Below are positions 895 to 45,781 of a stretch of 64,000 nt of DNA, in pieces. A program made the translations under genes and the position numbers. This DNA is from Bilabrum cf. latius. Its lineage: Eukaryota. Each line of letters begins with the position of its first letter. Position 1 is the first letter of the stretch. The DNA is taken from NCBI GenBank assembly GCA_965178125.1, contig OZ237775.1, positions 1 to 64,000 of the forward strand. The letters are read 5' to 3'. Below the pieces are notes generated by a model. The model was not told where the DNA came from, made no database searches, and saw only the letters and a list, made by a program, of their open reading frames with translations.

Positions 895-896
895 AA

Positions 897-5765: not shown

Positions 5766-6409
5766 TGCATATGCAGCGGCGTCATCGTAGGCGTCTTTGT
5801 GACCATGGGAATTTTAGGAGCATTGAATGCTATATCGCTGTCCGATCAGTCTGACTATGATGTGTGGCTCCGCAATGAGCGTGAGATGATAATTTCCCCG
5901 CGCTGCTTGGTAGTACAATTTAGTGCCAGCCCTGCGCACTCACCCATCCTGAATGCAATTTCAAACGTGTTCAAACCACATCTCTCCCAACTGCCCGCAG
6001 CCGAGGTCGAGCAGCGCCAAGCGGTTGAGCGCGCTCTGGCGTAGCTTACGTCAGGCGACGGTAGCGGCACCGCGCTCCGCCAGCCGCAGCAGACTGCAGA
6101 CCCCGTGGAGCTCGACCTGCTGGTTATGTCTTACAGCAGAAATGGAGATGCCCTGTCAGATAACAGGGCACTTCAGGAATTCGCCCAAGCTACCGCCGGC
6201 ATCGTGTCAGACCCGAATTTCCCGGACACTTGCCACGTCCTCAACGCCACGACAAAGGTGTGCGCCCCTCCCCTCACTTTCCTGGAACTCAACTACGGAC
6301 CTGAGGTGCAACTCGGGTCGAGCGTACAACTCGACGTGCCTCCGCATTCCCCTAGTGCCGGCCTAGACCAGTCAGCCACCCTCCGCCTGGCCCCGCCCTC
6401 AGCGCCTGC
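5766..6409 (+). CDS. 5' part of a Dispatched/Patched-family (RND, sterol-sensing domain) gene, interrupted by the virophage
   Basis: After a probable acceptor at ~5765 comes a TM helix (CICSGVIVGVFVTMGILGAL), an in-frame TAG at 6042, and sequence running to ...PPSAPA. This joins in frame to PAHLRHD... at 23327 when the element and one TSD copy are removed. First exon not identified. Confidence 0.75.
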
Positions 6410-7421
6410 GGGGGGACAACAGGTGGTGGTAGGTACACCAAGCGTTTAGGACGAGGGCTACGCTACGCTCGCCCCTCCTTTAAAGGCATATTTAGCAACT
6501 CAAGTGTTTCCCCTATAAACCTAAATGATTTCACAGGGGGTTCCCCAAGAACCCCTATAGAACCCCTCTATGTACCCATTTTCAGATATAAAATTTACTC
6601 CTACGAAGTAGGGGTAAATTGAAGAATTCTAATATTTAACCCCCTTATAAACTCTAACAGCAAAGACAGAGATGTTTTAGTAAAGTAGGAAAAAATGAAG
6701 AAATTAACCAAGTGTCCAAAATATCTCTGTGTTTGCTGTAGGAACGGAAGGATGAATTCCCAAGAGACCAAGAGACCAACCGAGGATTTCCCCAAGAGAA
6801 CAAGGTATTTTATCAAGAGACCGAGGTATGTTCCCAAGCGACCGACCGATGAACCGACCGATGAACCGACCAAGGATTTCCCAAGGATTTCCCAAGCGAC
6901 TAAATTGTTCTCCGAAGCAACCAAACCGATTACCCAAGAGATGATACATTATAAGGAAAACGAAAACAAATTATAATTGTATTTTAAGTCCCTTTGGAAA
7001 AGTCCCCCAAAAATTGAGAGATTTTACAGGTCAATTTTAAGAGACTTAGAAATATTAAAATTAAGTTCCCAAGATGCTCGGGCTTTGCCCTCCGCTCTTT
7101 TGATATCTTTTTCAAAGATTAAAATTAAATGTTGTAATTCCTATGATGCCACCATAAAAATTAAAAGGAAAATAAAAAACAAATTATAATTGTTTTCCAA
7201 CTCCCTAATTAAAAACACAAAAATTGATGGAAAATAATATAGGATACAAAGAAATATTAAAGTTAAGTTCCCTATTAAAATTAAATGTTGTAATTCCTAT
7301 GATGCCACCATAAAAATTAAAAGGAAAATAAAAAACAAATTATAATTGTTTTCCAATTAAAAACACAAAAATTGATTGAAAAATTTTGACAATATAGGAT
7401 ACAAAGAAATATTAAAATTAA
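6410..7421 (+). repeat. Left terminal inverted repeat of the virophage
   Basis: Reverse complement of 22388-23326. The outer ~560 bp look identical except for micro-repeat copy number, and the inner part is a mosaic of shared blocks. Confidence 0.95.
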
Positions 7422-7461
7422 GCAAGGAAAAGCATACCTCTATTAAAGAACTATATAGCAA

Positions 7462-8517
7462 ATGAGTAGCGCCTTTGAAAGAATATTACAATCCCTAAAC
7501 ATTTATCCCAACAGTCGTATTGTAAATTTAATGAAACGACCAAAACGACCCAAAGGAGTAAATCGACCCCACGTAAATGTACCAGAACCTCACCAAGTGG
7601 TACAAATGGATTTATTATCATTACCCCACGACAATAATTATAAATACGCATTAACTGCTATTGATTTACATACAAAGTAGGCCGATGCTGAACCGCTCAA
7701 AACCAAGCGTTAGAACGAAGTATTAAAGGCATCAAAAAAGATTTTCAATCGTGGTAATGTCCAGAAACCGCAGCACCGTTTGGAAATAGATAATGGAAAA
7801 GAATTTAACGCTTTACAAAGATATTTAGAAGAGAGCGATGTATTTGTACGAAGAAATAAAGCAGGTCGCCACCGACAACAAGCATTAGTGGAAAACCTAA
7901 ATAAAACGTTGGGAAAAGCCATATTTACCCTATAGAACGTTAATGAGTTAAATACAGGTAATGAAAGCGTAGAATGGGTGGATATGCTTCCAAACATCAT
8001 TGAAAACTATAATGAATATCAACTAGAAAAGTATATAGAAGAACCACCTTTACCCCCAGAACACTTCGACTTTACGTAGTGTAAAGGAGACGCTTGTAAT
8101 ATATTGGAAGAGGGTACAAGAGTTCGTATACCATTAGAAGAACCCAGAAAGGCTACAAATTTACAGCAAAAATTATCCGGAAATTTTCGTGCTTCAGATT
8201 TACGCTATAATCCAGAAATCAAAACGATAACTAAAGTATTATTAAGACCGAGACAACCACCCTTATATGTTGTGGATTAGGATGATTTAGTGGCTTATCC
8301 AAAAGAGGAATTACAGATTATCGACTTTGATAATGAGGACAATAACCGAGATGCTCAGACAATCTTTCTGCCAAAAAAAATAAAATCCGAGAACGAAACA
8401 GAATATCAAATAGAATGGAAAGATTTTCCAGAACCAGAACATTGGACGTGGGAACCAAAGAATAAAATCCAAGAAATTGCTCCTAATTTAATTTTGGAGT
8501 GGGATATAGAAAATTGA
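7462..8517 (+). CDS. Retroviral-type (rve, DDE) integrase with C-terminal chromodomain, 351 aa with TAG=Gln
   Basis: Single frame with 5 TAGs (7678, 7711, 7933, 8077, 8278) and no TAA/TGA. DDE triad: QMDLL, EIDNGKEF, QALVENLNKT. Chromodomain: EYQIEWKDFPEPEHWTWEP. Ends in TGA. Confidence 0.93.
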
Positions 8518-8574
8518 GATGCCCCGTATCGTACCTTAAGGATTATTTTCGTATTCTATAGTACAACAACAAAA

Positions 8575-10233
8575 ATGTCATTCACTCTGCCGACTAAAGC
8601 GTATTCGTCAAAAAGCCTTATGGACCTATGTAATGCCGGAAAACAAGAGGAATGTATTCAATACCTTAAACAATACTTCTACCGCACCCACGAGCAAGGT
8701 GGCGGGGTGTATTTTCTAATAGCATCTGAATTAAATCGGAATAATATAAGTGATGACGAACCCCAGAAACCAGTCTGGTAGTTCCTTACGAATAAAAATA
8801 TTACTGAAAATTACCTGATTGGGGGACACTGTATTTACGCGATTGTGGGCAACAAAAGAGTAAAGACTTGGTCAGCACGAGACTGGTTCTTAAATGAGAA
8901 TACCGACGTATTTACGATTGTAAGAAAATTTAATTCACCTACCGTGGATTACGACAATCAAACAATTAACGTTATGGGTTCACCTATACTTACACGGGAA
9001 AACTGTGGAAACATAGAGGATTTATCCGAAGACGCAAAAGCAGGCGCGACTATGATTTATGAACATATCCAGAAGGTGTGGACTTCAGAAGACAAAGAAT
9101 AGTGTGATTTTGTGATGAAATGGTTGGCTCACGTTATTGTGGGCGGAAAGAAGTTGGGTACAGCACTATATTTGAAATCTCCACAAGGAACTGGTAAATC
9201 GATGATTATTACCTTCCTTATGAGAAAACTACTCGGATATACCCTTACACTATAGACGCTTACACACAAGATGCTTCAACCCGACGCCTTCAACTCAATT
9301 CTGGACGGGAAACTATTAGTCAATTTTAATGAAATTCCAAAAGCCTCGCCAACTATTTGGGACGCCATGTAGGCAACACTAAGAAATCTTATTACGGAAA
9401 AACACTTTTCCTGTAATGAGAAGTTTGTCAAATCCGAAAGTCGTCCCAACACATTCAATTTAATTATTGATACGAATGATAGTCCAATCAAAATCACCGA
9501 GGAAATCCGTAGATATTGTGTTTTGGATGTGAATACATCTAAGAAAGGAGACAAAGAATACTTTACAACACTAAAACGTTTTACAGAAAATCCAGAAGTG
9601 GCTAAGGCATTTTATATGCTATTGGTTGAAATCTATGATACATCACCAGACTTTACAGGACAATTCGCACCAAAATCAAAGAATTTTTACAAAGGAATTC
9701 TTGATGGCGCACATCCGGTTTTAAAAATTCTAAAAGAAGAGTGGCTGGACGAAGGCAGAGATTTTAAAATGACAGTCTTGGAATTCCGCAATTATCTAAA
9801 GTAGGAACTGAACGGTAGAGTGAAGAACCTTGGTACACCTATGATTAAAACACTATTGTCAGAGGTGGGTGTTCATTCAACGATGAACAAATAGAGAAAA
9901 CAAGAATTTAATGTGAAACACGCAGACTTACTAAAAGGCTTCCAATCTAAATTTTAGGCACTTCGTCATTCTGCTGAGATGGAAAAAGCAAAATCCGAGG
10001 TGGATGTTCTTCGAGAATAGATTAGAGAACTACAGAAACAAGTCGCATAGCAGTAGGAAACGATTGAATAGATGGAATTGGAAAAGGAGATTACACCGAC
10101 GGAAAAAGTCCATAAGAAAATCCAGAAACAATTGAGTGTTGAGAATAGCATCGCTATTCAAAAATGGATAGAAGAAAACCCTCCAAACAAAAAAGGAAAA
10201 CTTTCCAAATTCCTCTGTAAAATTGAGAAGTGA
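8575..10233 (+). CDS. Superfamily 3 (D5-like) helicase, 552 aa with TAG=Gln
   Basis: Continuous frame with ~11 TAGs. Walker A SPQGTGKS, Walker B-like LVNFNEI, motif C LIIDTN, RRY arginine finger, and a C-terminal coiled coil. Ends in TGA. Confidence 0.9.
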
Positions 10234-10290
10234 GTGAGTTCGTACCTTAAGAATAATTATCGTATTCTATAATATATTAGATACTATAGA

Positions 10291-12132
10291 ATGCCCGAAA
10301 TCGATTTTACGGAACCCCAAAGAACCAAATTGCGTCTTAATGGGAAACCAATATGGAGTATGCGATTTGAGAGCGAGGACCTTATCACCGTAAAAGATGT
10401 CTTGGAATTTATTCGTGATTACGACGATGGTGGTGAAAATCCGTTTGATGACTTTAAATTTAAGGTGAATATCAATTACCAAGATACAGGTTGGCGAACA
10501 AGAAGCACTTGGATTACTACAGATGATTTAGAATATCAAGATAGTTTATGGGCGGGCTACGAAGACGACGATGACGACGAATATAGAAAACTGAATTCTT
10601 TTGAACTACTGCTTATTAGAAAGCCAGAACCAGAAGGCGGTGCTGACGAACATAACGATTGTTTATATAACGCTATAAAACAGGCTTTTCCTTTTTCAGT
10701 TGGTCGTAAGGTAAATGTAAAGAGCGCAAAAGGCAAATGGAAAACTACTATTAAAAGATTGTCGAAGTCCGACCTCAAAGAACTCTTGAAAATTGGACGT
10801 GATGACCCCGTTGATTACAGAAGAATACCAGAGATAGAAGACGAACTTCAAGTACGCATTCATGTTGTAGGCGACTTTGAATACACATCTGGAAAAACTC
10901 ATTTTGACCGTCTTCTAACTGTATCATTAACAAATGGGCATTACAAGTATGTTCCCCCCATTAGTTAGAAAGAATTATTTACACCGCCGTCTAAAGAACC
11001 GTGTACGCTAATTACCCGCTTGTATCAATCCGAGAATTCTTATTTACTATTTGATGGAGACCGTGAGTATCAATCAGAAGGCATTACATCAGTTTCCAAG
11101 GATAAATTCATCTTTGAAGTCAAGTCCAAGGAAGAACTAAGAACAAAACACGAAGAACGGATGAAAAATGTAAGGGCATTAGCGAAGGAGACGGGTGGAT
11201 ATATGGATTTATCACGATTTATGTTTAGAACATCCCTATTTGTAAAGTCGTATTTCAGTAAGTTTTCCAAACTTTACCCTGCCGACCCGATTGACCAAGT
11301 TGAAGCACTATGGATTTCAAGAGCATCAGGTGGTGGATTGAATTGGGCAAACAAGAATACTACATTAAAAAACGCATACCAGTACGATATTAACTCATTT
11401 TATCCAAGTATTATGAAGGGTACATTTACATTTCCGGTTAGAAGGGGTAAGTTCGTACAATTTAAAGTACCATCCAGTGGGTTCTATCCGTACGGCATTT
11501 TTAGGGTACATATTGAAAATCTCAATTCTAAATTAGTACAAAAAAGAAAAAACAATTATTATACCCAATATGACATTAACCGAGCGATTGAGACGGGCGC
11601 TTAGGTGTCTCTGATTGAAGACGGTGAAGCCAACGCTTTACTTTACGATGAGACAACAAGGGTGAAGGCAAATGGACTGTTCAAAACGATGATTGAGCGA
11701 TTGTACGGTTATAAAAAATAGGGATTGAAGTGTGCGAAGGAGATACTAAATAATATTTGGGGTTCTCTATGTTAGAAAAACACAATCACAAAAACACTCC
11801 GAGATGGTGATTGTATGAATTTTAGACAATTAAAGAACGCGTATCCTAAAGCATCTGGACGACTTGTATCGGGTATACTATATGACGAAGAGTACGATTA
11901 CAAAACAGCCTACGCAAGAATGGGCCCCTTTCTGACTGGACTTGGACGAAGTAAATTGTCCAAAATGATTGAGCCATATCTTGAAAACATTCACTATGTC
12001 AACACGGATGGTTTCATTAGTGAGAAAGAATTACCTCTAAAGTTAACAACGAACCTTGGGGGTATGAAGTTGGAGCAATCAGGTGAATGTCAAATTATTC
12101 ACAGTAAGAAGAAAATTTTTAGAAAAGATTGA
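10291..12132 (+). CDS. Protein-primed family B DNA polymerase (pPolB), 613 aa with TAG=Gln
   Basis: Motif A YDINSFYPSIM, motif B KEILNNIWGSLC(TAG)K and motif C YVNTDG. TAGs at 10966, 11602, 11719 and 11773. Ends in TGA. Confidence 0.93.
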
Positions 12133-12188
12133 CCAAAGCACCGCAGTTTACCGGCGGAACGGCATAAAAGTGTTTAGAAAAGATTGAA

Positions 12189-12461
12189 TTAAATAGTCTG
12201 CTTTTCCTTTAGTCTCTAAATTTCCTATCGCAAACTATCAAGTTCATCCATAATATTAATTTGTTCCCTTTTTGTGTCTTCCTCTTTTTGAAGCCAATCA
12301 AGGTGTTTTTTGGTTCTACAATGATGTGATTTATTGTACTTCTTATATACACCACCACAGGAACACTTTATCTATTCTCCAAGTTTTTCCTTGTTTTTCC
12401 GGTAGTATTCACGGGCATACAGCTTATCCTGTTCTTTTCTTTCTGAATGACTGAGTGTCAT
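12189..12461 (-). CDS. Small C2H2-like zinc-finger protein (90 aa)
   Basis: MTLSHSERKEQDKLYAREYYRKNKEKLGE(Q)IKCSCGGVYKKYNKSHHCRTKKH..., with 3 TAGs and a TAA stop. Confidence 0.75.
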
Positions 12462-12502
12462 TTTTGTATTCTATAGTATTATACTATAGAGTTAGATTTA
12501 AG

Positions 12503-13144
12503 TCATACATTCTACCAAGCAATTTTTAGAGCATCACTTTTCCCATATCCTCTACCTCTTAACTACTGAGCGATTTTCATTGCTAGTTTTGCTTTTGGGT
12601 TTTTCCGACGGCGCCTCCCTTTTCCAGTTTTTTGTGGTTTAAAACTCTACTTCGCTCTTTCGCTCGAGCCCCAATCAGGCACTTCACCACCCATTCGCAT
12701 TATTCTAGCCTATCTCGATGATAATAGTTCTTTCTAACTGTTTCCCTTCTCTCTAGCATCAAAAAATTCACGCATAGTATCTCTCCGTTCTGACGCATAT
12801 TTTCTATGAATTGCCTAATTAAAATCATCAAGTGTTGTGTCGTGTTGCTCGTGTAGTGATGGTGATAAGAATTTTAGTATACCCACGTCATAATCACCAT
12901 CACTATATTTGTCAATTCCTAGCGTATCAAATTCTTGTTCGGTCTTTTCGGCGAGCATTTCCATCATTTCCCTTTCCTAAGGGTTTACATATACACGATT
13001 AGCGTACTTTTCCCCTATACTCTAGTGCTTCCTCAATCCTTTCAAAATTGCTAGTGCTTGTCTAGCGTCTTTCCCCAAACTCTGATGTGGCTAACTAGCC
13101 AGTAAATGTAGTTGTTCTTCGGTATAATCATCAACACCCGCCAT
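12503..13144 (-). CDS. Hypothetical virophage protein (213 aa) with basic C-terminus; probable core/virion protein
   Basis: Open frame apart from TAGs. Ends ...TGKGRRRRKNPKAKLAMKIAQ(Q)LRGRGYGKSDALKIAW(Q)NV-TGA and is preceded by a TATAGTA motif. Confidence 0.7.
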
Positions 13145-13164
13145 TTACTATACACAATCATAAA

Positions 13165-14442
13165 TTAATCATACGCAAACATTTTCCAAGCCTACTTAAG
13201 TGCTGTCTTCTTGGATATTCCTTTTCCTCTTAAAATGGACGCCATTTTCATAACTCTTGAACGTTTGGTTTCACACTGACATTGACCTCCAAATATTTCC
13301 AGATACATACCCGATACTGGGTCATTCGTATGCGAATGGATTTCTTTCATAATTGGTCTTCCAACTGTATTAGTTGCTAAATCCCAACCTTCCTTAAAAT
13401 CTTGTCCAAAATCCCTTTCTGTGTTCTACTTATGCTTTTCCTAATTTTTTCTTAAAGCGTTTCTTACATCTTCCGGTAAATCATCTAAGCCTCTCCCAAA
13501 CCATTTGGAAAAATAACCAGCCACATCAGTAGCAGCATTAGCCACTCTCTTAGTAAATCCCGATACGTTCTTAGCAATACTCTCTACATCCTACATAATA
13601 AATTGGTTTAAGGGTGGTGTCAAAAACCCATTTGTGCGCAGAACATCTTGGATAAATTTTTGGCAGTTCAGACTAAAAGCACGGTACTGATAAAAGTTGT
13701 ATTCTCCAATTTTCTGTAAAGTGGTTTCATATAATTCCCTTACTGTTTTCTAAGGTTTTCCATTAATATTTACTTCCATAGTTTGTGTTTTCTTGTTGGT
13801 GGAAAATCTTGAGGACAAATTAACCCTCTCATTCTTCTCAAGATAAATCTTTTTTCCACCTCCAAGGTTCAACTCTAAGGCTAAGTGAAAAAAATCATTA
13901 TATCCGTGTTTATTTTTTAACTTTTTCATTTTTCCAAGGGTAATCCAGTTAAGCAACCGATTAATCGCGCCACTAATGGGGGTTCTAATTACTTTCATAG
14001 CGATAATTGTCCTATCCCCGTACTGTTTAAGATTTCTCTGGACTTCGTTCGTATTTCCATACACTACTCCACCCTTAAGCTGTTGCGCCAGCTAACTGCG
14101 CCGAGAGGGGGTGCTTCGCAAACCATCTTTAAGCTGGCTTCGCGGACCATCTTTTAAATACTAATGAAGTGTGTTGGATTGTGTAGGTTTCTTTGCCTTG
14201 GGTTTCTTCGTTTTTCTTTTCGGCAGACCATCTTTAAGCTGTTGCGCCAGCTAACTGCGCCGAGAGGGGGTGCTTCGCACACCATCTTCAAACTTAATTG
14301 CTTTTTCAAGGGCTTCTTTAGAATAAGGATGTTCACTTTTCCATGTCCTTGTTGTTTTACTCTTTGGTTCTTTGACACTAATGTACGTCTTAACAAAACC
14401 AGAATTCATTTTTCCGCCACTAAGTGTATAAAAACTATCCAT
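13165..14442 (-). CDS. 425-aa protein with a putative permuted papain-like (NlpC/P60, PPPDE/LRAT-like) domain and basic termini
   Basis: ORFs 14251-14442 and 13750-14064 share a frame that stays open through TAGs to TAA 13165. Motifs FFHLALEL, LEKNERVN and YRAFSLNCQKFIQDVL give a His followed by NC. The family call is by motif only. Confidence 0.65.
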
Positions 14443-14467
14443 TTAGTATAGGCTTGTATTAAAAAAC

Positions 14468-15085
14468 TCATAGACGACTTCCAAGACCGAAGGTTTTCCG
14501 GACGAATTCCTCCAGTTGCTAAAAGGATGAATAGACACAGTACTAACCCTAATGTAATCCAGCGATTAAATTCGTTCTTGAGCGTTCTACAGACAATAAG
14601 TCCCCCGATTTTTTCCCTTCACGGATTTCCTCAAAAAGACTGTGAGAAGGCACACAAACAAAAATTGAACTTTCCTTAAATAAATCTTTCGCTAATTCCA
14701 ACGAACCAACCATAACAATTAAACGCCTGGATTTCTTCGTGAGCCAATCCGCTTTAATTTTTTCATACACTAATCTTGACTAAGAGTAATAAAAGAGGCG
14801 GTGGGTGCTCTCATCACCGTCAACCAACATCTTCTCCATTTTCTATTTTTCCTGTCCTGAGATTTGAGCATTTACGCATTCGTCTAAATCAATAATTAGC
14901 GTGTCCTTATCCACCGCTTCTAGGGAACGACACAAAGTAGTTTTACCGCTTCCTTTTGGAACAACCACGCACGATTTCTGTTTCTAAGTTCCGTCTTTCG
15001 TCCACCAAGAATATAGACACTTACTTCCTGTATAAGCTAACGGGGCTAACGTACCAGCAACCATTACAGCAGTTGATACTGACAT
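14468..15085 (-). CDS. P-loop NTPase, nucleotide/nucleoside kinase-like (205 aa)
   Basis: Walker A VVVPKGSGKTT, then LIIDLD. Hydrophobic N-terminus. Open with TAG=Gln and ends in TGA. Confidence 0.7.
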
Positions 15086-15140
15086 TGTTTTGATATACTA
15101 TATACCAAGACAAATATTTATTGGTTTACTCTTTTCATAC

Positions 15141-16907
15141 TCAAGCTTGGAGCATAGCGAGTAATTGATTGCGAGAAAGAGATTTACCACCTGTTAAGCC
15201 CGAGCCTAACTTGGCACCTGTTAAGCCCTTGCCTTTCTTGGTAGTTTTTCGGGGTTTCCTTTGGCGACCCATTCCAGCCATTTCACCCACCATTTTAGCG
15301 GTGTCAAATACCTACTTACCATCCTTTAATACTTTTTTGAGATTGCCTTTCTTTACCCAATCAGCGGTTTTGTGTGCGAACTTTTTTAAGGCGTGTCTAA
15401 TCTTTTTCCCAAGACCGCGACCGTGTAATCCTGATAATTGACTTTCATATACCACGGGTAGTTTAGAGGCGGACAAAACGTCTGCTCGTGAGATGACACC
15501 CTGCTAATACTCGAACTTAGACCCATCAATCAAATTTAATACTCCTTCGTATAATCCAATCACAACACACTACACATTATCGTAGCCCACATCATCATTA
15601 TTCTTCACTCGTAGGGTTATAGACAGTTGGTTAGACCCGTTGCTACCATTTGTCTAATCCACATCTAAGCTTAAGTCCTTGGCGGGGTCAATACATAACA
15701 GACCACCTGATAGCACCCTATCCCCGAATTTACGCATAGCCCATTCATTATATTGCTATTCAAGTCCGTTGCTTCTGGATAAGTCCCATAACTGCTGTGG
15801 CGATGCGTCGGCGAGTAATCCACTATGGTTATTCATCTCTATACTAATTCCATCAATTGCCATGAATGTGTTTCCCTAATCTACTGAAAGGGTTGTAGGT
15901 GAGCGACGGGCAAACACAAATAAACGACTTGGAACTGAATTACTAAGCTTAATATTGTTATTGTAAAGAGTTGCTGTAGTACCTGCGGCAATTGTTGGAC
16001 TATGACTTTGGGTATACGAAGTCATCTCAAAAATATCATACGAGACCTATTTAGGAAGCACAAATCCTGTTTTAGGTGTAATCTATTCAAGGTATAGGAC
16101 TGGTTCTTGGACATCTACCGACTAAATGGTAGCAGTTAAGCCCTATTGTGGAATACGAGACCACACGGTTCTACTCAGTTGAGACCAATTAATATTTAAG
16201 GAGAGTGTTTGAATTCCGTATATAGCCGTTTGTTCCTATTTACTTTCGTAGTGGAAAGGTGGACATAATACCGCCTCAGTGCATTCAAAAACAAGAACAC
16301 GATTTTGAGTTTGACCTGCGGGTACATCAGTATTATCCATTTGATACAAATTGTAAAATCCACTTCCTCGGGCTGGTTGGTCCTAAAGCACGTCCTCATA
16401 CGAAGCAAGAGCGTTATTCGTAGACTAACTCATCATCGCGTATGAAGGCACATTATCGCGTCTATACACACTATCAAGGCAATTCACACGGTGGACATCA
16501 TCATCTAGTAAATGGGACAGAGCGTCCATTAGTTCGCCGTTGTTCTGGGTATAGCGAAGGTTATTAATGCCAACTGTCTATGTTGCGATGGAGCGATTAA
16601 GTGGATAGGAGCGTGGAGCATCGTAATCTGGTCTAAAGGGTGCTAGACCACCTGCGGTTTGATTATTCACGGAAAAGGTGATAGAAAATCGGCATGAGAC
16701 ATAGGCGCGGCGGCACAAACCTACACCTGAAGGCATACTAATATTCCAGTTGACCCCGCTGTTGTAGTTTCCGGCAGAACCAGATGGGTTGTATTTACGA
16801 AACGTTCGGTTCTCATAACCTTCTTGAACTTCATACGGCTTCGGTTGTACATCTAGTGTTGCGGGTGATACTTTGACTGGCTGAAGGGCAAAGGTATTCA
16901 ATGACAT
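15141..16907 (-). CDS. Virophage major capsid protein (double jelly-roll), 588 aa with TAG=Gln
   Basis: Continuous frame with ~14 TAGs and a TGA stop. Virophage MCP motifs: DAPRSYPL, EAVLCPPF, VPSRLFVFARR, NNHSGLLADASPQQLWDLSRSNGL, GGLLCIDPAKDL, YEGVL. Basic C-terminal tail after HGRG. Confidence 0.93.
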
Positions 16908-16985
16908 TTTTGTTTTCCTTGTATATTATATACAACGAATAAAATTCTATGGGGTCGCGTCCCCATCCGACGAATTATCATTTTT

Positions 16986-18101
16986 TCAAAGTCCTTTCCG
17001 TTTCTTAAATAAAAACTTCACACTCACACTTCCGTGGCGTAAATAAAGAGGTCTTAGATTTGAATAATTGTCTTTCCAATATAGATTAAACTAAATCCTA
17101 TCTACTGAATGTGTATCTAAAAAATCAATTTCGTGGAGAATATGGGGCTGGTATTGAAGAACCTACTAATTAACTGTTTCAGTGTCATCTAATACACAAT
17201 CCATATCCACTAATAAACTCTCTGTTCCAGCACCTGAATTTTGAACTGTATTTGTTGACTGTCCATAGGCAGATTTCTAGGATATTGCCTCACTCCTCAC
17301 TGGAAGACTTGAAGATGTGAAAACTATTCCACGGAAAACCTAAAACTACACTAAACTCCCTCGTTCCTAGGTCATCATTAATCTGTAGTCTCCTGATGGA
17401 TTTCCCTCGAAGTATGCCTAAGGTTCATATTTTCCAACAGAACTGCCATCATCAAATAAAACATTCGTTCCTAAGGTTTTGAATAGAATACTGGCGTATA
17501 AGTCGTCATCTTGGATATCCATTCGTTCCATAGGAAAACCCGTCATCAGTTCGTTAAGGGCTTCATTCAACACTAATTTAAATTTCTGTCCTGAGTTTTC
17601 CTCGTCGTAATCGGGGTTTGCTACTAAAGAAAATTTACCATCTTTAAAGAGTAAAACCGGAACTGATGTAATATCCGCTGACAAAGCGTTCTATAGGGTT
17701 TCGTTGAATAAATCAACAAAATGCTACACGGAATACATATAATAATAAGGAACAAACTACATAGGATTGGAAAATGATGGTTGGTTTTCCCCTGTTAACT
17801 AGGGTCTCCACTGAATGCTTGAGGTCCACAAACTTACTCCGTCTTCATCTGTAATGCTTATTCTATACACTGTTTGATTAGGATTTGAAGATGGATTTTT
17901 CACTTTATCGGTTTCTATGTGTGGAACCCATAAAGGTATTGAATTGGTGCTTATGGAAAACCGGAATACTGACATCGTATAATCACCAACATCCTTATCT
18001 AATAATGGCTACTTGCGGGTTTCGCTATAGGTCGCTGGTTGGAAAGTATCTTCGTTATTTCGTATGTTTGCGGTAATGTAAAATCGGTCTGGAGAACTCA
18101 T
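16986..18101 (-). CDS. Virophage minor capsid protein (penton), 371 aa with TAG=Gln
   Basis: Motifs YSETRK(Q)PLL, YTMSVFRFSISTNSIPLWVP, YYYMYSV(Q)HFVDLFN, MT(Q)E...IVFTSSSLPV and FNLYWKDNYSNLRPLYL...KFLFKKR. Lies directly upstream of the MCP gene. Confidence 0.9.
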
Positions 18102-18157
18102 TTTACTATAGACGTTTATAATTATGGGGTGGGTTTGATTACTTTTCTAAAGTATAA

Positions 18158-18649
18158 TTAAGATGGTGTAATAAGTGAACCTGACACTAAGGATTTCCAA
18201 CTAGATGTAGAAGAACTGCCAATCGCCACATAGACATCGTTGTCGCTTCCATTATACACTAAAGCGCCCTTGAACTTTCGCTCTGCTGACGTATTAATAG
18301 GGGTAGAAGCGTCAGCCAATGTAGCTCCAGCAACCTCACTCAGCCCAACAACACCCTCTTGAGAAGTCTTGAATGAACCAACTAGTGAAATATCGCATCT
18401 TTCTCCTTCTTCGCTCATACTGAACTGACAACCAGCAGACGCTCCGTTTTTTCCAAACCGTAGAACAGTTTCACCCCACTCCATATAAGGCTCTCCGTCT
18501 TTGAATTCAATACTTGGATTGCCTATGACTGCTCCCGTAGAGTTAGTAATTGCGGACACTTTAATTGCGTCGCTACTCACAACATTACACGTAATAGTTT
18601 GAGACATAAGGTCTAGACTGTTCTTAGATAGAAGATTTGAAACTGACAT
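18158..18649 (-). CDS. Putative fiber/spike protein (163 aa)
   Basis: Clean ORF ending in TAA. The N-terminus MSVSNLLSKN.. resembles the capsid-anchor N-termini I recall from virophage fiber proteins. Gly/Ser-rich beta-type body, adjacent to the penton gene. Confidence 0.55.
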   Translation of the reverse strand: MSVSNLLSKNSLDLMSQTITCNVVSSDAIKVSAITNSTGAVIGNPSIEFKDGEPYMEWGETVLRFGKNGASAGCQFSMSEEGERCDISLVGSFKTSQEGVVGLSEVAGATLADASTPINTSAERKFKGALVYNGSDNDVYVAIGSSSTSSWKSLVSGSLITPS

Positions 18650-18714
18650 TTTATAGTATATCCACAGAAATAATTTTTATCAGGTTGCCAAAAGATGTAA
18701 ATAAGAGGTTTTGG

Positions 18715-19896
18715 TCAATCTTTTCCTAAAAGATGTAATAGTTCCATAGCAACCTAATGATGAATATCTTTATCGGCTCCTTTTACTTTCTTGGCTACAT
18801 TCATTGCTGTATCATAGATAATCCTTTTTCCACCTCGTAATCCTTTCCCCTTTTTTGGTTTTCCACTTTCTTCTACAGTCATTGCGCGTGATGGTGGGTC
18901 TTCTAAATCAGGCTACTAAATTCCATAGGGCGGACTAAACCCCGTAAATCGCTACACAGGTCTAGTAGCACGTTTTCCAATTCCCTGCTCAATTTCTATC
19001 CTACTCGGCATATCATAGTACTCACCAGTTTCTGGGTCCCACGCCCCCGGAGTGCTTCCTTGCGGTAGTGGTCTTTCATTGCTCGCTGCGGCTAATATGG
19101 CATCTAAGTCTTTTGATGTTTTTGACGCATTACTACTTGAACCCTCTTGAAAATGCTAAAACATATTTGTCTGCCCCTGTGATGTTCTTTGTGAGAAATT
19201 CTTTCCCTATTCTAAATCCCACGCTATTCGTTGTTTTTCAGTTAAGGGTCTGTCTTGTTGTATTCTTTCTCTGGCTCTTTCCAATAACTATTTATACGCA
19301 CCCGAAGACCTTTTTGGAAGCTGTACTTGTGTTGGAGCGGAAAACGTGTTTCTTCTTGTTGTTCGAGCAGGTGTTTGTAAAGATGTTGGCTACTAATCAA
19401 TTCCCAACATTCCCTACGGTATTCGTTGTCCGGATGCCTCCTATATAACTTTCCCTAATTCTAAGAGTTGTTTTCTGTCTTCAGCTGGAACTCTCTGCAG
19501 TCCTTCGTAGCCTTTCCTTTGAAATCTCTCAATATTTACGTATTGACGGGCTAGTTGTTGCTTCATTTGTGGAGACATATTGATATTACCAACAAAATCC
19601 TTCAATGCTTTCACTGCTGGACTTACATTTTTACCCTCAATAATACCTTTCATTATACCAGATATTGACTTAGATATGATTTCCTCGTTGCTTTGGTCTG
19701 CCTATTTTCTCTACGCTGGAGTTCCATACCTTCCACTTTCTTTTAATCGTTCAATTTTTGCCCTTTTCCTTATAAAATCACTATATTCTGTTTCTAAATC
19801 TACGTCGTCCCTTGCCTGTAAATCTAACATTTTAGCATTGTCCAGTTCCCTTTCTAGGGCTTGCTGAATAAGAGCATTCACTTTAGCAGTTTTCAT
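18715..19896 (-). CDS. Hypothetical virophage protein (393 aa), Gln-rich, with KGKG/LRGG near the C-terminus
   Basis: ORFs 19711-19896 and 19441-19653 share a frame, which continues through TAG codons only to TGA 18715. Confidence 0.75.
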
Positions 19897-19959
19897 TTAC
19901 TATAAGCTTTTATAAAAAGCTTGACCAAAAAATAAAAAAAAGTGTTTGTGTATAGTATA

Positions 19960-20199
19960 ATGGATATTGATAAGTGGATTATATAGAGAACCAAACAACT
20001 CGCGCTATAGAAAGAACAAGACGCTTTAAATAGAGTTAAAAACAAACATATTAAAGTTGGAAAAGGCCGTAGTAAGCCTAAGCGGAAAGTGAGCGCCAAA
20101 ATGAAACGCCGCAATAAACTTGTAAAAATGGTGATGTAGTAGACTGGTATGAGTTTACCTCAAGCAAGTCGGTATATACGAGAATAGAATATTATTTAA
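19960..20199 (+). CDS. Small basic protein (79 aa), probable DNA-binding core protein
   Basis: MDIDKWII(Q)RTK...VGKGRSKPKRKVSAKMKRRNKLVKMVM(QQ)TGMSLPQASRYIRE(Q)NII-TAA, with TATAGTA upstream. The C-terminal R..LVK.VM...G.SL..AS.Y motif is familiar from virophage proteins. Confidence 0.7.
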
Positions 20200-20228
20200 A
20201 GAAACTTTTATAACAAGTTTGACCAAAA

Positions 20229-21131
20229 TTACATAAGGTAAGCCTACTTTTCTCCTAATAAATACCTCGGGTAATTCCTGTGGACACATACCCACCTAGA
20301 AGGCATTTTTAAGACTTTAGAGATTTCTTGTTTCTCAAGTCCTATATAATTTTTTAGTAAATACCTTAGAGAATGTGCGGAAGAACACTAAGGGAATATA
20401 ACGAACTTATGACTTTCCGCAAGAATAATTCGGGTACTTTTATAGTTGGTAGATAAATGACTTGTGATTAATACAGAAGTATTCGAATGTCTTCCAACCT
20501 ACAATATTTCATCCTGTAAATGATTGAGGGCTTCCCTTAACTTCTTATCTTTGATTGTATCAATATCATCCAAGATTACTAAGGCGTCCCTTAATTCCTA
20601 ATGAATATCAATCGGGTTCTCCACCAGTTCCTCATTTAAAATAATCCTTTTCAGTCCTTTCACTTCATCTAAGACTTTATCCTACTATACTCGTGAAAAT
20701 AAAATAATTCTCCTGTTTGGAAACATTCTGTGATAATTCTTAGCATATTTGGAAACCCAAGTAGACTTCCCAGCACCTGATGGTGCGGTGATATAAATGA
20801 CCTCTCTTCCTTTTGGATTTGGTAATGATTGGAATTCACCCTATTTTAATGTAATCTCTTTATGTTTCTTTTCCTATGCTTTTTCATACAAGTATTTGAT
20901 GTCTTCGTCTAGGGGTTCGACCTGTTTGATTAAGTGTCGTGCTAATAAATCCATTTTCCTCTGCGGAAATCGTTTCCCTGTAAGTGATGATACTTGAAAA
21001 TCCTAGAATGATATACTATCATCTCCAAATTGGTTGTCTGTCTTTTCCGCTGTGTATAAAATACGTTTTCCGTGTGTGTCATATGCGATAGGTGTTGATT
21101 TTGTAGTTTCCTTCCAAGAAAAATGTGCCAT
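20229..21131 (-). CDS. Virophage DNA-packaging ATPase (FtsK/HerA/A32 family), 300 aa with TAG=Gln
   Basis: Walker A YITAPSGAGKST, Walker B LVILDDID, IL(Q)VGRH, ITSH, TRIILAESH, and SRWVCVHRNYPRYLLGEK(Q)AYLM followed by TAA. Confidence 0.93.
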
Positions 21132-21321
21132 TTTAGTGTATTTACTATATGTTTTTATATTTTCTAAAGTGTTTTGTCTTTTTGTTGAAAACTTATTTTG
21201 AATGATTGTCTTTTATGCTATCCACAAATTCCAAAACGGATTTTGTAGAAATACTTCTACGCATAAATAATGGTTAAGAGATGTTTTTATCTCCCCCAAT
21301 ATATATGTATATAATAAATAT

Positions 21322-21858
21322 ATGGATTATGCTCTTAGCGATAGTGATATTCGTGTTCTCCTCCAAAATCCACCAAATATTAAGGCATTTCTTCCTACGT
21401 CGGTAAACATCGTTCCATATACAGAATTAGGATAGTACAATAGTATTGATGGATTATTTAGTCGTTGTAATTGTTGTATCATTCTATACCAAGAAGAAAT
21501 AAACTCTGGACACTGGGTCTGCTTATTTAAGCGTAATAAAACAATATACTTCTTTGACAGTTATGGAATTCGTCCTGATAGGCAATAGCACACAATGAGT
21601 GAAAGCGTGCGGAAACGTTTTTATGAAGACCCTGAGTTAATTTATTTAATGTATCATTCTCCGTATAAGATTGACTATAACCCATATTAGTTTTAGGCGG
21701 ATGGAATGGATATAGCAACCTGCGGGAGACATTGTATAGTTCGTCTTTGGAATAGAGCGAAAAACGCTGATTAGTATAAAAAGTGGGTGGATAAGGTTTG
21801 TAAGAAACATACATTAAATCCTGATGAATTAGTGTATTTATTGACGTGTCATTTATGA
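21322..21858 (+). CDS. Adenain/Ulp1-like maturation cysteine protease, 178 aa with TAG=Gln
   Basis: Catalytic His in GHWVCL, Asp in FFDSYG, Cys in TCGRHC. The oxyanion-hole Gln position (YNPY*F*ADGMDIATC) is a TAG at 21694. Confidence 0.93.
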
Positions 21859-22137
21859 ACTCCAAAGGTAAAAATGTGAGAAGAACTTTGGGGTTCTTGG
21901 TTTTACTTCGATACCGTGTCGTTTGAAGTATCTAAATTGGCGGTCCGTATCTAAATGATTTAAATGGCTGTAATACCCTATTCTATCGTAAAATTGCTAA
22001 TACCGCCTATCACCAAACGATGTAATATATTCATCATTTTCGTCAAAAACATCATACTTCTTATTCTTGCGTCTTGAGGGTGCTTTAAATAGAAAATTCT
22101 CAACAACCTTTTCAAAATCGTAGGTATGTAGCTTCAT
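21853..22137 (-). CDS. Small protein resembling DUF5754 (found in giant viruses and Polinton-like viruses), 94 aa
   Basis: SRRKNKKYDV...FGDRRY(Q)QF...H.D..R..RY..RH....TPKFFSHFYLW followed by TAA. Family call from a remembered motif. Confidence 0.65.
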
Positions 22138-22168
22138 AAGTACTTTATAGTATAGTCTTCTACTTATA

Positions 22169-22282
22169 TCAAAGCCCGAGCTTCTTGTATTCCTTTAGTT
22201 TTTCGTGTAATTTTTTCCAAATACGTGGATTAATTTGCTTGACAATATGCTCTATCATCAACTCCTTTAAAAATGGGTTCAT
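22169..22282 (-). CDS. Possible 37-aa micro-protein
   Basis: MNPFLKELMIEHIVKQINPRIWKKLHEKLKEYKKLGL-TGA, preceded by CTATAGTAAATG like other element genes. Confidence 0.35.
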   Translation of the reverse strand: MNPFLKELMIEHIVKQINPRIWKKLHEKLKEYKKLGL

Positions 22283-22387
22283 TTACTATAGTGATATAGA
22301 ATGGTCTTAATTATCATCTCTTGGGAAATCCAATCTTTGAAAAAGATATCAAAAGAGCGGAGGGCAAAGCCCGAGCATCTTGGAAAA

Positions 22388-23326
22388 TTAATTTTAATAT
22401 TTCTTTGTATCCTATATTGTCAAAATTTTTCAATCAATTTTTGTGTTTTTAATTGGAAAACAATTATAATTTGTTTTTTATTTTCCTTTTAATTTTTATG
22501 GTGGCATCATAGGAATTACAACATTTAATTTTAATCTTTGAAAAAGATATCAAAAGAGCGGAGGGCAAAGCCCGAGCATCTTGGGAACTTAATTTATTTT
22601 TTCTAAGTCTCTTATAATTGACCTGTAAAATCTCTCAATTTTAATCTTTGAAAAAGATATCAAAAGAGCGGAGGGCAAAGCCCGAGCATCTTGGGGGACT
22701 TTTCCAAAGGGACTTAAAATACGTTTTCGTTTTCCTTATAATGTATCATCTCTTGGGTAATCGGTTTGGTTGCTTCGGAGAACAATTTAGTCGCTTGGGA
22801 AATCCTTGGGAAATCCTTGGGAAATCCTTGGGAAATCCTTGGGAAATCCTTGGTCGGTTCATCGGTCGGTTCATCGGTCGGTTTATCGGTTTGTCGCTTG
22901 GGAACATACCTCGGTCTCTTGATAAAATACCTTGTTCTCTTGGGGAAATCCTCGGTTGGTCTCTTGGTCTCTTGGGAATTCATCCTTCCGTTCCTACAGC
23001 AAACACAGAGATATTTTGGACACTTGGTTAATTTCTTCATTTTTTCCTACTTTACTAAAACATCTCTGTCTTTGCTGTTAGAGTTTATAAGGGGGTTAAA
23101 TATTAGAATTCTTCAATTTACCCCTACTTCGTAGGAGTAAATTTTATATCTGAAAATGGGTACATAGAGGGGTTCTATAGGGGTTCTTGGGGAACCCCCT
23201 GTGAAATCATTTAGGTTTATAGGGGAAACACTTGAGTTGCTAAATATGCCTTTAAAGGAGGGGCGAGCGTAGCGTAGCCCTCGTCCTAAACGCTTGGTGT
23301 ACCTACCACCACCTGTTGTCCCCCCC
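22388..23326 (-). repeat. Right terminal inverted repeat of the virophage
   Basis: Reverse complement of 6410-7421, ending ...CCACCACCTGTTGTCCCCCCC. Confidence 0.95.
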
Positions 23327-45680: not shown

Positions 45681-45781
45681 TTGGGATCAATAAGTATAGT
45701 ATACCATCAGACCAAGCGGTCCATCCGAAGCCACGGCATGTCCCCGCCCACGAGCGATGCCACTCTAGTCGAACCTAGGCA

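What the first reader, a model, noticed from the sequence alone, without database searches (positions are those of the whole stretch)
6410..23326. Intact endogenous virophage written in a reassigned genetic code (TAG=Gln)
Under the standard code the element looks like scrambled pseudogenes. Reading TAG as sense restores about 15 full-length genes with no internal TAA or TGA despite the AT-rich composition, which random decay would not produce. TAG sits at positions where homologs normally have Gln: the protease oxyanion-hole Gln (21694), pPolB motif B WGSLC*K (11773; cf. YGKFGQ), penton MT*E and SV*HF, and the helicase coiled coil LRE*IRELQKQVA*Q*ETIE*. TAG is used heavily (about 14 in MCP, 11 in the helicase), so this virus could only be translated in a TAG=Gln cell. 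Inference: a virophage adapted long-term to an alternative-code protist, which implies a helper giant virus that must also tolerate this code. I am not aware of a described virophage with this code, but I cannot search.
Basis: partly seen in the sequence, partly recalled or inferred. Interest (0 to 1): 0.97.

Follow-up and report, generated by a model that had tools for sequence, protein, structure and literature searches.

The report
Integrated virophage written with TAG=glutamine
A 16.9 kb virophage genome sits intact near a chromosome end of a GC-rich protist and, like its host and its relatives in metagenomes, reads the stop codon TAG as glutamine.

Summary
Window 6410-23326 is a 37-41% GC island in a 57-71% GC eukaryotic chromosome end, which starts with a (CCCTAA)149 telomere. 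The island has about 1 kb terminal inverted repeats and a 5-bp target duplication (CCTGC).

Read with TAG as sense, it gives 15 ORFs (4621 codons) with 106 in-frame TAG and no in-frame TAA or TGA. All 15 end in TGA (9) or TAA (6).

The genes are a Sputnik-type major capsid protein, a penton, an rve+chromo integrase, a DUF5906 helicase, a protein-primed polymerase, a packaging-type ATPase and a putative cysteine protease.

Five metagenomic contigs carry syntenic relatives (MCP 48-58% identical) that also have in-frame TAG. In codon-by-codon comparison with them, Gln is the best meaning for TAG by 53 and 29 log-likelihood units. A sister copy in public runs has CAG where this copy has TAG.

Host genes (UBA1, PPOX, alpha-galactosidase, CDPK) also carry in-frame TAG inside conserved blocks, so the host reads TAG as sense. 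Its amino acid is not settled from host data alone.

The element is multi-copy, and its variants are mostly synonymous (26 of 39).

Dependence on a giant virus, and that virus's code, remain inferred. The nearest precedent I found is the Streblomastix polinton-like elements that use TAA/TAG=Gln.

The parts
1..894 (.). Telomere repeat (CCCTAA)x149. It marks the window start as a chromosome end. The element lies about 5.5 kb inside it.
5805..6409 (+). Host ORF piece upstream of the insertion. It is in frame with the ORF that resumes at 23332 and has a coding-like GC1/2/3 of 0.66/0.47/0.64.
6405..6409 (.). Left copy of the 5-bp target site duplication CCTGC
6410..7421 (.). Left terminal inverted repeat. 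The outer 475 nt are 98% complementary to the right end, and the inner part is made of repeated blocks.
   Evidence: (I1-I13)
7462..8517 (+). Integrase: rve core plus C-terminal chromodomain; 351 aa, 5 TAG
   Evidence: (PF00665 E 3.8e-9; PF00385 E 6e-6)
8575..10233 (+). DUF5906/VapE-type helicase with C-terminal coiled coil; 552 aa, 11 TAG
   Evidence: (PF19263 E 3.5e-15); 57% identical to an ORF of L005
10291..12132 (+). [quoted passage not shown]
   Evidence: PF03175 E 3.2e-5, 23.5 bits, below the 25.8 cut-off; 61% identical to an ORF of L005
12189..12461 (-). ORF of 90 aa, 3 TAG, unknown function, conserved in L003/L004/L005
12503..13144 (-). ORF of 213 aa, 9 TAG, unknown function. Its basic C-terminal tail resembles that of the next ORF.
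13165..14442 (-). ORF of 425 aa, 8 TAG, unknown function, with an internal repeat; conserved in L002-L005
   Evidence: (D3)
14468..15085 (-). ORF of 205 aa, 6 TAG, with a P-loop motif. The only Pfam match is a weak AAA_24 hit. Conserved in L002-L006 (56-59% identity).
15141..16907 (-). Major capsid protein, virophage (Sputnik V20) type; 588 aa, 14 TAG
   Evidence: PF21915, PF22031; 3j26 E 2.7e-31; mavirus 6g45 E 3.1e-8
16986..18101 (-). Penton (minor capsid) protein; 371 aa, 13 TAG
   Evidence: (PF21507 E 1.6e-10)
18158..18649 (-). ORF of 163 aa, no TAG, no homologue in the related loci
18715..19896 (-). ORF of 393 aa, 13 TAG, unknown function. The N-terminal 156 aa are conserved in L003-L005.
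19942..20199 (+). Small ORF (85 aa from GTG, 5 TAG). Its true start is uncertain. The C-terminal part is conserved in L003-L005.
20229..21131 (-). P-loop ATPase at the position of the virophage packaging ATPase; 300 aa, 9 TAG
   Evidence: generic AAA families only; 38% identical to an ORF of the standard-code virophage contig L001, and that ORF scores 22.5 bits against Pox_A32, whose cut-off is 22.8
21322..21858 (+). Putative cysteine protease; 178 aa, 5 TAG. The residues GHW, FDSYG, a Gln column and CG occur in that order.
   Evidence: No Pfam hit. Homologues in L001-L005. Alignment.
21853..22137 (-). ORF of 94 aa, 1 TAG, unknown function
22332..23326 (.). Right terminal inverted repeat
   Evidence: contigs of other copies leave the element at 23326/23327 (table 7)
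23327..23331 (.). Right copy of the target site duplication CCTGC
23332..26158 (+). Host ORF resuming after the insertion: a Patched / sterol-sensing-domain membrane protein with 4 in-frame TAG
   Evidence: (PF02460, PF12349)
45782..50113 (-). Host ubiquitin-activating enzyme E1 ORF with 4 in-frame TAG, 2 of them inside conserved blocks. This is the main evidence that the host reads TAG as sense.

Best explanation
This is an apparently intact, recently mobile provirophage. It has a mavirus-like gene set (rve-chromo integrase, protein-primed polymerase, helicase) and Sputnik-type capsid genes. It is integrated 5.5 kb from a telomere of a GC-rich eukaryote, inside a host reading frame.

Shown here:
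- The element's structure: TIRs, a 5-bp TSD and 15 open frames.
- TAG is a sense codon in the element, and TAA and TGA are its only terminators.
- Gln is the best-fitting meaning of TAG.
- The host's own genes contain in-frame TAG.
- Relatives in metagenomes are recoded in the same way.
- Several copies exist, and they differ mostly at synonymous sites.

Inferred:
- The host supplies a UAG-reading tRNA-Gln and a release factor that ignores UAG. No tRNA gene lies in the element.
- The integrase inserted the element with a 5-bp duplication, and its chromodomain may steer it towards subtelomeric chromatin.
- A shared motif TATA[GC]TA lies 8-27 nt before 10 of the 15 starts. By analogy with mavirus, it acts as a promoter read by a co-infecting giant virus, which would wake the element.
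- That giant virus would have to express its genes in a cell where UAG is Gln.
For: Structure:
- GC island.
- TIRs, with the outer 475 nt 98% complementary.
- TSD CCTGC on both sides.
- Telomere at 1-894.

Gene identities:
- Pfam matches.
- PDB 3j26 at E 2.7e-31.

Code in the element:
- 106 in-frame TAG, 0 TAA and 0 TGA in 4621 codons, against 271 TAA and 264 TGA in the off-frames.
- Terminators are 9 TGA and 6 TAA.
- TAG makes up 106 of 263 Gln-type codons; CAA 111 and CAG 46 are sums of the per-ORF counts.

Recoded relatives:
- L002-L006 are syntenic. The L005 ORFs hold 50 in-frame TAG and the L004 ORFs 42. The standard-code virophage contig L001 holds 0.

Meaning of TAG:
- Against L005, 19 of our 71 TAG codons that face a standard codon face CAA or CAG. 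7 of their 33 TAG face our CAA or CAG. Log-likelihood is Gln -262.4 against the next best, Lys, at -315.5.
- Against L004 the counts are 16 of 62 and 6 of 27. Log-likelihood is Gln -254.8 against Glu -283.7.
- As a control, our CAA/CAG codons face Gln most often (38, with Glu next at 16).
- With about 140 distant standard-code MCPs, Gln ranks first for the 13 usable TAG columns, but only 0.3 units ahead of Glu. The same method recovers 19 of 20 ordinary amino acids.
- The protease TAG at 21694 lies in a column that is Gln in L001 and L005.

Copies and selection:
- Of the 40 best-supported differences listed, out of 393 in all, 39 are coding: 26 synonymous and 13 not. One is TAG to CAG at 9802.
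- Contigs in 4 runs of 2 studies leave the right end at 23326/23327 into different flanks (table 7).

Host code:
- 12 in-frame TAG in 5474 codons of 7 homology-supported host ORFs.
- UBA1 TAG 103 and 145 sit in aligned blocks.
- A 96% identical orthologue, P0158, has R and Q at two further TAG positions.

Promoter-like motif:
- 29 matches in the window against 4.0 expected, 26 of them in the element.
- It lies upstream of 10 of 15 ORFs, while only 2.5% of 40-nt windows in the element hold it.
- It also sits just before gene starts in L002 and L005.
Against: - No RNA or peptide data were seen.
- No tRNA gene of any kind is in the window or in L001-L006. No whole genome is held. The decoding tRNA and the release factor are therefore unseen.
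- Host residues aligned to host TAG are mixed. At UBA1-103 the 119 homologues have A 76, S 15, T 7, Q 7. At UBA1-145 they have S 40, T 39, Q 12. Alpha-galactosidase has T and PPOX has H.
- The CDPK site faces L and F at a position that is hydrophobic in both PDB relatives shown. This fits Gln poorly.
- Distant-homologue evidence on the MCP alone does not separate Gln from Glu.
- The protease has no Pfam family and the ATPase matches only generic AAA families. The pPolB match is below Pfam's cut-off.
- "Virophage" is a statement of homology. No giant virus was seen.
- P0001 and P0002 in the protein library already carry Q at TAG positions, so their gene caller assumed this code. Counts that include them are partly circular.
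Confidence: 0.85

Rival explanations
1. The element is a decayed provirophage, and its TAG codons are nonsense mutations that accumulated after integration.
For: Under the standard code every large gene is broken, and the longest ORF is 225 aa. Bellas et al. 2023 (PMC10120064, passages read) report many endogenous elements that look broken.
Against: - Decay would also create TAA and TGA. There are none in 4621 codons, against 535 in the two off-frames.
- Relatives from metagenomes share TAG at some of the same codons, for example MCP 110, 161 and 418.
- Differences between copies are mostly synonymous, 26 of 39.
- ORF lengths match those of the relatives.
Confidence: 0.01
2. TAG is a sense codon here but stands for a residue other than Gln, such as Glu, Lys, Leu or Tyr.
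For: - The host CDPK TAG faces L and F.
- With distant MCP homologues Glu is only 0.3 log units behind Gln.
- Several MCP TAG columns are hydrophobic or aromatic in distant homologues: 110 is L/I/M, 262 is I/V/L, 275 is Y/F.
Against: - Codon-level comparison with two recoded lineages puts Gln 53 and 29 log units ahead of the runner-up. Leu and Tyr are not among the best six.
- One sister copy has CAG where this copy has TAG.
- The Gln column of the protease is conserved.
Confidence: 0.07
3. Only the virus is recoded, as in code-15 phages. The host would use the standard code, and a suppressor tRNA would come from the virophage or its giant virus.
For: TAG is used far more in the element (106 in 4621 codons) than in host genes (12 in 5474). 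Recoded phages in standard-code hosts are known (PMC9523058, search listing only).
Against: - Host UBA1, PPOX, alpha-galactosidase and CDPK carry TAG inside blocks that align to solved homologues.
- No tRNA gene lies in the element or in 5 related contigs.
- The difference in TAG use follows base composition. The AT-rich element also prefers CAA to CAG, while the host prefers CAG.
Confidence: 0.04
4. It is a Polinton/Maverick-type self-synthesising transposon or a polinton-like virus that spreads on its own, not a giant-virus-dependent virophage.
For: The pPolB, rve integrase, TIRs and TSD are the Polinton hallmarks. The element is multi-copy in the genome. No giant virus was seen.
Against: The capsid genes match the virophage-specific families rather than generic ones: Sputnik_MCP_1st, MCP_V20_C and V18-19, and 3j26. 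Nearly every gene is preceded by a short shared motif close to the start codon. I recall this as typical of virophage genes read by a giant virus's transcription machinery. Mavirus carries the same Polinton-like genes and is a virophage (recalled).
Confidence: 0.15

Closest known systems
Mavirus and the endogenous mavirus-like elements (EMALEs) of Cafeteria
   Same: An element of about 17-19 kb with long TIRs, an rve integrase, a protein-primed polymerase, a helicase, and the MCP-penton-ATPase-protease module. It is integrated in several copies as an AT-rich island in a GC-rich host genome, and short shared motifs precede the genes. Gene set. The comparison with mavirus and EMALEs is recalled; the Cafeteria genome preprint 10.1101/751586 was seen only in a search listing.
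   Different: This element is written with TAG=Gln, whereas mavirus and its host use the standard code (recalled). By sequence its MCP is nearer Sputnik V20 (E 2.7e-31) than the mavirus MCP (E 3.1e-8). The upstream motif is TATA[GC]TA, not the TCTA late motif I recall for mavirus/CroV.
Endogenous polinton-like elements of Streblomastix strix that use TAA/TAG=Gln (Bellas et al. 2023, PMC10120064; passages read)
   Same: An integrated double-jelly-roll-capsid virus written in its host's non-standard nuclear code, which the authors take as a sign of long association.
   Different: Those elements belong to a 'Metamonada' MCP group seeded by a Trichomonas MCP, and both TAA and TAG are reassigned. 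Here the capsid is of virophage type, only TAG is reassigned, and TAA still terminates 6 of 15 genes. Free relatives with the same recoding occur in metagenomes. I could not see that paper's supplementary tables.
NCBI translation table 15 (TAG=Gln; TAA and TGA stop), as used by recoded phages, and the nuclear UAG=Gln code recalled for the fornicate Iotanema
   Same: The same codon change with the same two remaining stops.
   Different: Here the code belongs to a GC-rich eukaryote with TTAGGG-type telomeres and to a eukaryotic virus. The Iotanema case is recalled from memory and was not checked in a paper.
Giant-virus genomes from metagenomes that annotate better under alternative codes (PMC13524828; passages read)
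   Same: They suggest that viruses of protists can follow host code changes. One Imitervirales genome there goes from 13% to 93% coding density under code 6.
   Different: Those are giant viruses, mostly inferred from gene-calling scores. The word 'virophage' does not occur in that text. No link to this element was tested.
Virophage clade with an ochre-reading tRNA (Paez-Espino et al. 2019, PMC6905037; passage read)
   Same: An earlier hint that some virophages live in hosts with reassigned stop codons.
   Different: That hint is a tRNA with anticodon TTA (for TAA), not recoded genes. This element has no tRNA, and TAA is one of its stops.

Membership tests
Virophages (class Maveriviricetes) | Virophage-type double jelly-roll major capsid protein | tested here: met
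   PF21915 E 8.1e-25 and PF22031 E 1.6e-27, both above their cut-offs. PDB 3j26 V20 E 2.7e-31. 2274 library proteins at E<=0.001.
Virophages (class Maveriviricetes) | Penton (minor capsid) protein | tested here: met
   PF21507 Sputnik V18/19, 40.8 bits against a cut-off of 27
Virophages (class Maveriviricetes) | FtsK/HerA-A32-type packaging ATPase | tested here: inconclusive
   Only generic P-loop families match. The ORF is 38% identical to an ORF of virophage contig L001, and that ORF scores 22.5 bits against Pox_A32, whose cut-off is 22.8.
Virophages (class Maveriviricetes) | Cysteine maturation protease | tested here: inconclusive
   No Pfam hit, and the PDB hits are spurious WD40 repeats. 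Homologues lie in the same place in L001-L005, and the H, D, Q and C positions are kept. The reading of these four as the catalytic residues is recalled from Ulp1/adenain-type proteases.
Virophages (class Maveriviricetes) | Replication depends on a co-infecting giant virus | not testable with these tools
   Only indirect evidence: a shared motif before 10 of 15 genes
Polinton/Maverick-like integrating elements | Protein-primed PolB together with an rve integrase | tested here: met
   rve scores 37.2 bits against a cut-off of 32.6. PolB_2 has E 3.2e-5 but 23.5 bits against a cut-off of 25.8. The polymerase ORF is 61% identical to its counterpart in L005.
Polinton/Maverick-like integrating elements | Terminal inverted repeats and a short target site duplication | tested here: met
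   TIRs of about 1 kb and a 5-bp CCTGC duplication. The usual sizes, 6 bp in Polintons and 5-6 bp in mavirus, are recalled.
Genetic code with TAG=Gln and TAA, TGA as stops (NCBI table 15 pattern) | TAG is read as sense in the element | tested here: met
   106 in-frame TAG in 15 ORFs whose lengths match those of their relatives
Genetic code with TAG=Gln and TAA, TGA as stops (NCBI table 15 pattern) | The residue encoded by TAG is Gln | tested here: met
   Gln leads by 53.1 and 28.9 log-likelihood units in two lineages. One sister copy has CAG for TAG. The distant-homologue test is only marginal.
Genetic code with TAG=Gln and TAA, TGA as stops (NCBI table 15 pattern) | TAA and TGA still terminate | tested here: met
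   0 in frame; 9 ORFs end in TGA and 6 in TAA
Genetic code with TAG=Gln and TAA, TGA as stops (NCBI table 15 pattern) | The host nucleus uses the same code | tested here: inconclusive
   TAG is sense in the host, with sites inside aligned blocks of UBA1, alpha-galactosidase, CDPK and PPOX. The aligned residues are A/S/T/Q, T, L/F and H, which do not fix the amino acid. The tRNA and eRF1 were not available.

The most novel reading that the evidence does not exclude
A protist lineage that reads UAG as glutamine carries its own closed virus community. This would include a clade of virophages already fully written in that code, seen both integrated here and free in metagenomes. By implication it would also include giant viruses that express their genes under the same code. 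The code change would then act as a barrier that isolates this host, giant virus and virophage triad from the standard-code virosphere.
Probability: 0.45. Interest if true: 0.85.

Novelty: new variant of a known kind. Interest (0 to 1): 0.72.

Why it matters
Endogenous virophages are thought to act as inducible defences against giant viruses. This one looks ready to work, and it can only be translated in a cell that reads UAG as Gln.

- It ties a whole virophage clade to one kind of host. About 40% of all Gln-type codons are TAG (106 of 263), so a jump to a standard-code host would truncate every large gene.
- It predicts a giant virus adapted to the same code. That virus can be searched for in the metagenomes that hold the relatives.
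- It flags a rare UAG-only reassignment in a GC-rich eukaryote.
- It has a practical lesson. Standard gene callers break such elements into fragments. The IMG/VR scan found only one distant, standard-code relative, while raw metagenome contigs held five recoded ones.

In five full-text searches I found no paper describing a virophage written with TAG=Gln. Papers behind paywalls and supplementary files were not searched.

Tried and rejected
- Whole genome of the window: none is held. No search for tRNA-Gln(CUA), eRF1 or further copies was possible.
- tRNA and Rfam scans of the window: nothing. tRNA scan of L001-L006: nothing.
- Distant MCP homologues (150 representatives): most TAG columns are variable and say little. 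The likelihood version puts Gln first only marginally.
- IMG/VR scan with the MCP alignment: 1 distant standard-code locus, from 79 pattern matches.
- PDB search with the protease: only spurious short WD40-repeat matches.
- Protein search with the host Patched-like ORF downstream of the insertion, meant to find an uninterrupted allele: no hit at my cut-off of 1e-20. An empty site is therefore not shown. No contig joining 6409 to 23332 was listed either (table 5).
- Expression: no RNA holder was listed among the runs.
- Depth: in contig data the element is 5-10 times deeper than the host flank (table 2). The tool warns that this is no copy number, so I rely on the differing flanks instead.
- Junction contigs: they reach only about 30 nt into the TIR (records 1, 7 and 23). 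This is what repeat-broken contigs do, and it is borderline for 'bridging'.
- Host identity: the nearest named UBA1 homologues are only 33-36% identical and come from green algae and diatoms. No lineage can be named. The CDPK and Mlo-like domains and the TTAGGG-type telomere are the only other hints.
- Structure prediction and complex prediction were not used.

Full report
**What is there**

The window begins with 149 perfect CCCTAA repeats (1-894), so it is the end of a eukaryotic chromosome. From about 6.4 to 23.3 kb the G+C content falls from 57-71% to 34-41%. The low-GC stretch is bounded by inverted repeats. The outer 475 nt are 98% complementary, and further inner blocks bring each arm to about 1 kb.

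Reading both ends base by base puts the element at 6410-23326. The same five bases, CCTGC, lie directly outside each end, at 6405-6409 and 23327-23331. In contigs of other public runs, sequences leave the element at 23326/23327 into different flanks (table 7). This fits the same right boundary and shows several insertion sites.

The host reading frame that ends at 6409 and the one that resumes at 23332 are in the same phase once one CCTGC copy is removed. Both show a coding-like GC pattern. The downstream part carries Patched / sterol-sensing domains. The element therefore seems to have landed inside a host gene. I could not find an uninterrupted allele.

**The frames**

Under the standard code the longest ORF in the element is 225 aa. 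With TAG read as sense there are 15 ORFs, the largest of 613, 588 and 552 aa. Together they hold 4621 codons, with 106 in-frame TAG and no in-frame TAA or TGA. The two other frames of the same DNA hold 271 TAA, 264 TGA and 158 TAG. Nine ORFs end in TGA and six in TAA. Only TAG has changed meaning.

**Gene identities**

From Pfam:
- Integrase core plus chromodomain (7462-8517).
- DUF5906/VapE-type helicase (8575-10233).
- Protein-primed polymerase (10291-12132). E is 3.2e-5, just under the curated cut-off.
- Both Sputnik MCP domains (15141-16907, minus strand).
- Sputnik V18/19 penton (16986-18101, minus strand).

The MCP matches the solved Sputnik V20 chain at E 2.7e-31 and the mavirus MCP at 3.1e-8.

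The ATPase (20229-21131) matches only generic P-loop families. Its counterpart in an ordinary virophage contig (L001, 38% identity) scores 22.5 bits against the poxvirus A32 packaging ATPase family, whose cut-off is 22.8.

The 178-aa ORF at 21322-21858 has no Pfam family, and its PDB matches are spurious. It has homologues at the same place in L001-L005 and keeps His, Asp, Gln and Cys positions in the order I recall for Ulp1/adenain-type cysteine proteases.

Seven further ORFs have no assigned function. Most are conserved in the related contigs.

**What TAG means**

The protein library already holds a 100% identical MCP fragment and a 59% identical full-length MCP with Q at our TAG positions. 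Their gene caller must have assumed this code, so they cannot serve as proof.

I therefore fetched DNA. One scan of metagenome contigs returned five loci (L002-L006) with MCPs 48-58% identical. Their MCP genes each contain 3-6 in-frame TAG and no TAA or TGA. The longer contigs carry the same genes in the same order, with 50 (L005) and 42 (L004) in-frame TAG in the homologous ORFs. The ordinary virophage contig L001 has none.

I aligned our ORFs codon by codon to L005 and to L004 and counted only partner codons that are standard.
- Against L005, 19 of our 71 such TAG codons face CAA or CAG (next: Glu 9, Lys 8). 7 of their 33 TAG face our CAA or CAG.
- Against L004 the figures are 16 of 62 and 6 of 27.
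- I used substitution profiles taken from the same alignments. Gln is the most likely meaning, at -262.4 against -315.5 for Lys (L005) and -254.8 against -283.7 for Glu (L004).
- Our own CAA/CAG codons behave in the same way (Gln 38, Glu 16, Ser 12).

A profile test with about 140 distant standard-code MCPs also ranks Gln first. The lead over Glu is only 0.3 units on 13 columns, although the method recovers 19 of 20 ordinary residues. That test alone would not decide.

Two single sites add weight. The protease TAG at 21694 lies in a column that is Gln in L001 and L005 and TAG in L004. A sister copy in all four laid runs has CAG where this copy has TAG at 9802.

**Is it alive?**

Four runs from two studies hold the element. 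Of the 40 best-supported differences listed (353 more were not shown), 39 fall in ORFs. Twenty-six are synonymous under TAG=Gln and 13 are not. Random change would give roughly one in four synonymous, so the copies have diverged under selection for these frames.

ORF lengths agree with those of the metagenomic relatives. The near-identical TIRs, the intact TSD and the several insertion sites point to recent movement.

**The host**

Seven host ORFs supported by homology hold 12 in-frame TAG in 5474 codons, next to 30 CAA and 175 CAG.
- In UBA1, two TAG lie inside blocks that align with solved E1 enzymes. Among 119 homologues these columns are A 76 / S 15 / T 7 / Q 7 and S 40 / T 39 / Q 12 / A 11.
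- A 96% identical orthologue, P0158, has R and Q at two other TAG positions.
- The alpha-galactosidase TAG faces T.
- The PPOX TAG faces H.
- The CDPK TAG faces L and F.

The host clearly reads TAG as sense. The residue cannot be fixed from these few sites, and the CDPK site fits Gln poorly.

The host has introns. An in-frame insert that starts with a GT-initial codon and ends with CAG splits the CDPK kinase domain. The TAG sites used here lie in aligned exonic blocks.

I could not name the host. The nearest named UBA1 relatives are only 33-36% identical and come from green algae and diatoms.

**How it probably works**

No tRNA gene lies in the element or in its relatives. Translation must therefore rely on the cell's own UAG-reading tRNA and a release factor that ignores UAG. 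This is inferred.

The motif TATA[GC]TA occurs 29 times in the window against 4.0 expected, 26 of them in the element. It sits 8-27 nt before 10 of the 15 start codons, while only 2.5% of 40-nt windows in the element contain it. It also sits just before the penton, MCP and next ORF of L002 and before the polymerase gene of L005.

By analogy with mavirus, whose genes carry the late promoter of its giant virus (recalled), I read this motif as the signal by which a co-infecting giant virus switches the element on. That step, and the existence of a giant virus working under this code, are not shown.

**What is known**

- Bellas et al. 2023 report that endogenous polinton-like elements of Streblomastix strix use that host's TAA/TAG=Gln code (PMC10120064, passages).
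- Paez-Espino et al. 2019 note an ochre-reading tRNA in one virophage clade as a hint of recoded hosts (PMC6905037, passage).
- A 2026 catalogue reports giant-virus genomes that annotate better under alternative codes and does not mention virophages (PMC13524828, passages).
- Three other papers that came up in the searches turned out to be about other matters (PMC11502894; PMC12480563; PMC12220804).

Five full-text searches found no description of a virophage written with TAG=Gln.

I therefore rate the finding as a new variant of a known kind: a known type of element, a known kind of code-matching, but a new code, a new virus group and a recoded environmental clade.

Noticed in passing
window 1-1215: The window starts with a perfect telomere, (CCCTAA)x149 at 1-894. 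It is followed by 5.8 copies of a 55-nt GC-rich subtelomeric repeat at 897-1215.
   Followed up: partly
window 5805-6409 and 23332-26158: The virophage appears to have inserted into a host coding frame, a Patched / sterol-sensing-domain protein. The two halves are in phase across the empty site. No uninterrupted allele was found.
   Followed up: partly
window 27614-29440 (minus strand): The host calcium-dependent protein kinase ORF contains an in-frame unspliced insert in the kinase domain. The insert begins with a GT-initial codon and ends with CAG, so the host has introns that can be read through in this GC-rich DNA. Long host ORFs in the window should not be taken as finished gene models.
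   Followed up: no
window 12503-13144, 13165-14442 and 15141-16907 (minus strand): Three virophage ORFs, including the MCP, end in similar basic tails with a short conserved helix-like motif (...G.G..K..AL..AW... and ...SRNQLLAMLQA). This may be a shared C-terminal signal or a processed segment.
   Followed up: no
window 50001-52000: A second, smaller dip in G+C (0.53 against about 0.62 around it). It overlaps a 560-aa ORF (50333-52015, 5 TAG) with no Pfam match and might be another foreign insertion.
   Followed up: no
window 18158-18649 (minus strand): This is the only sizeable virophage ORF without any TAG, and the only one without a homologue in the related metagenomic contigs. It may be a recent acquisition.
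   Followed up: no
P0010 and P0088 (protein library): Two MCP fragments (68% and 55% identical in the pairwise alignment) end exactly one residue before MCP column 384, where this element has TAG and other relatives have CAG. They look like further recoded relatives cut short by standard-code gene calling.
   Followed up: partly
window 45228-45703: Three further TATA[GC]TA matches, two of them an overlapping palindromic pair, lie in the short AT-richer spacer just downstream of the host UBA1 gene and outside the element.
   Followed up: no
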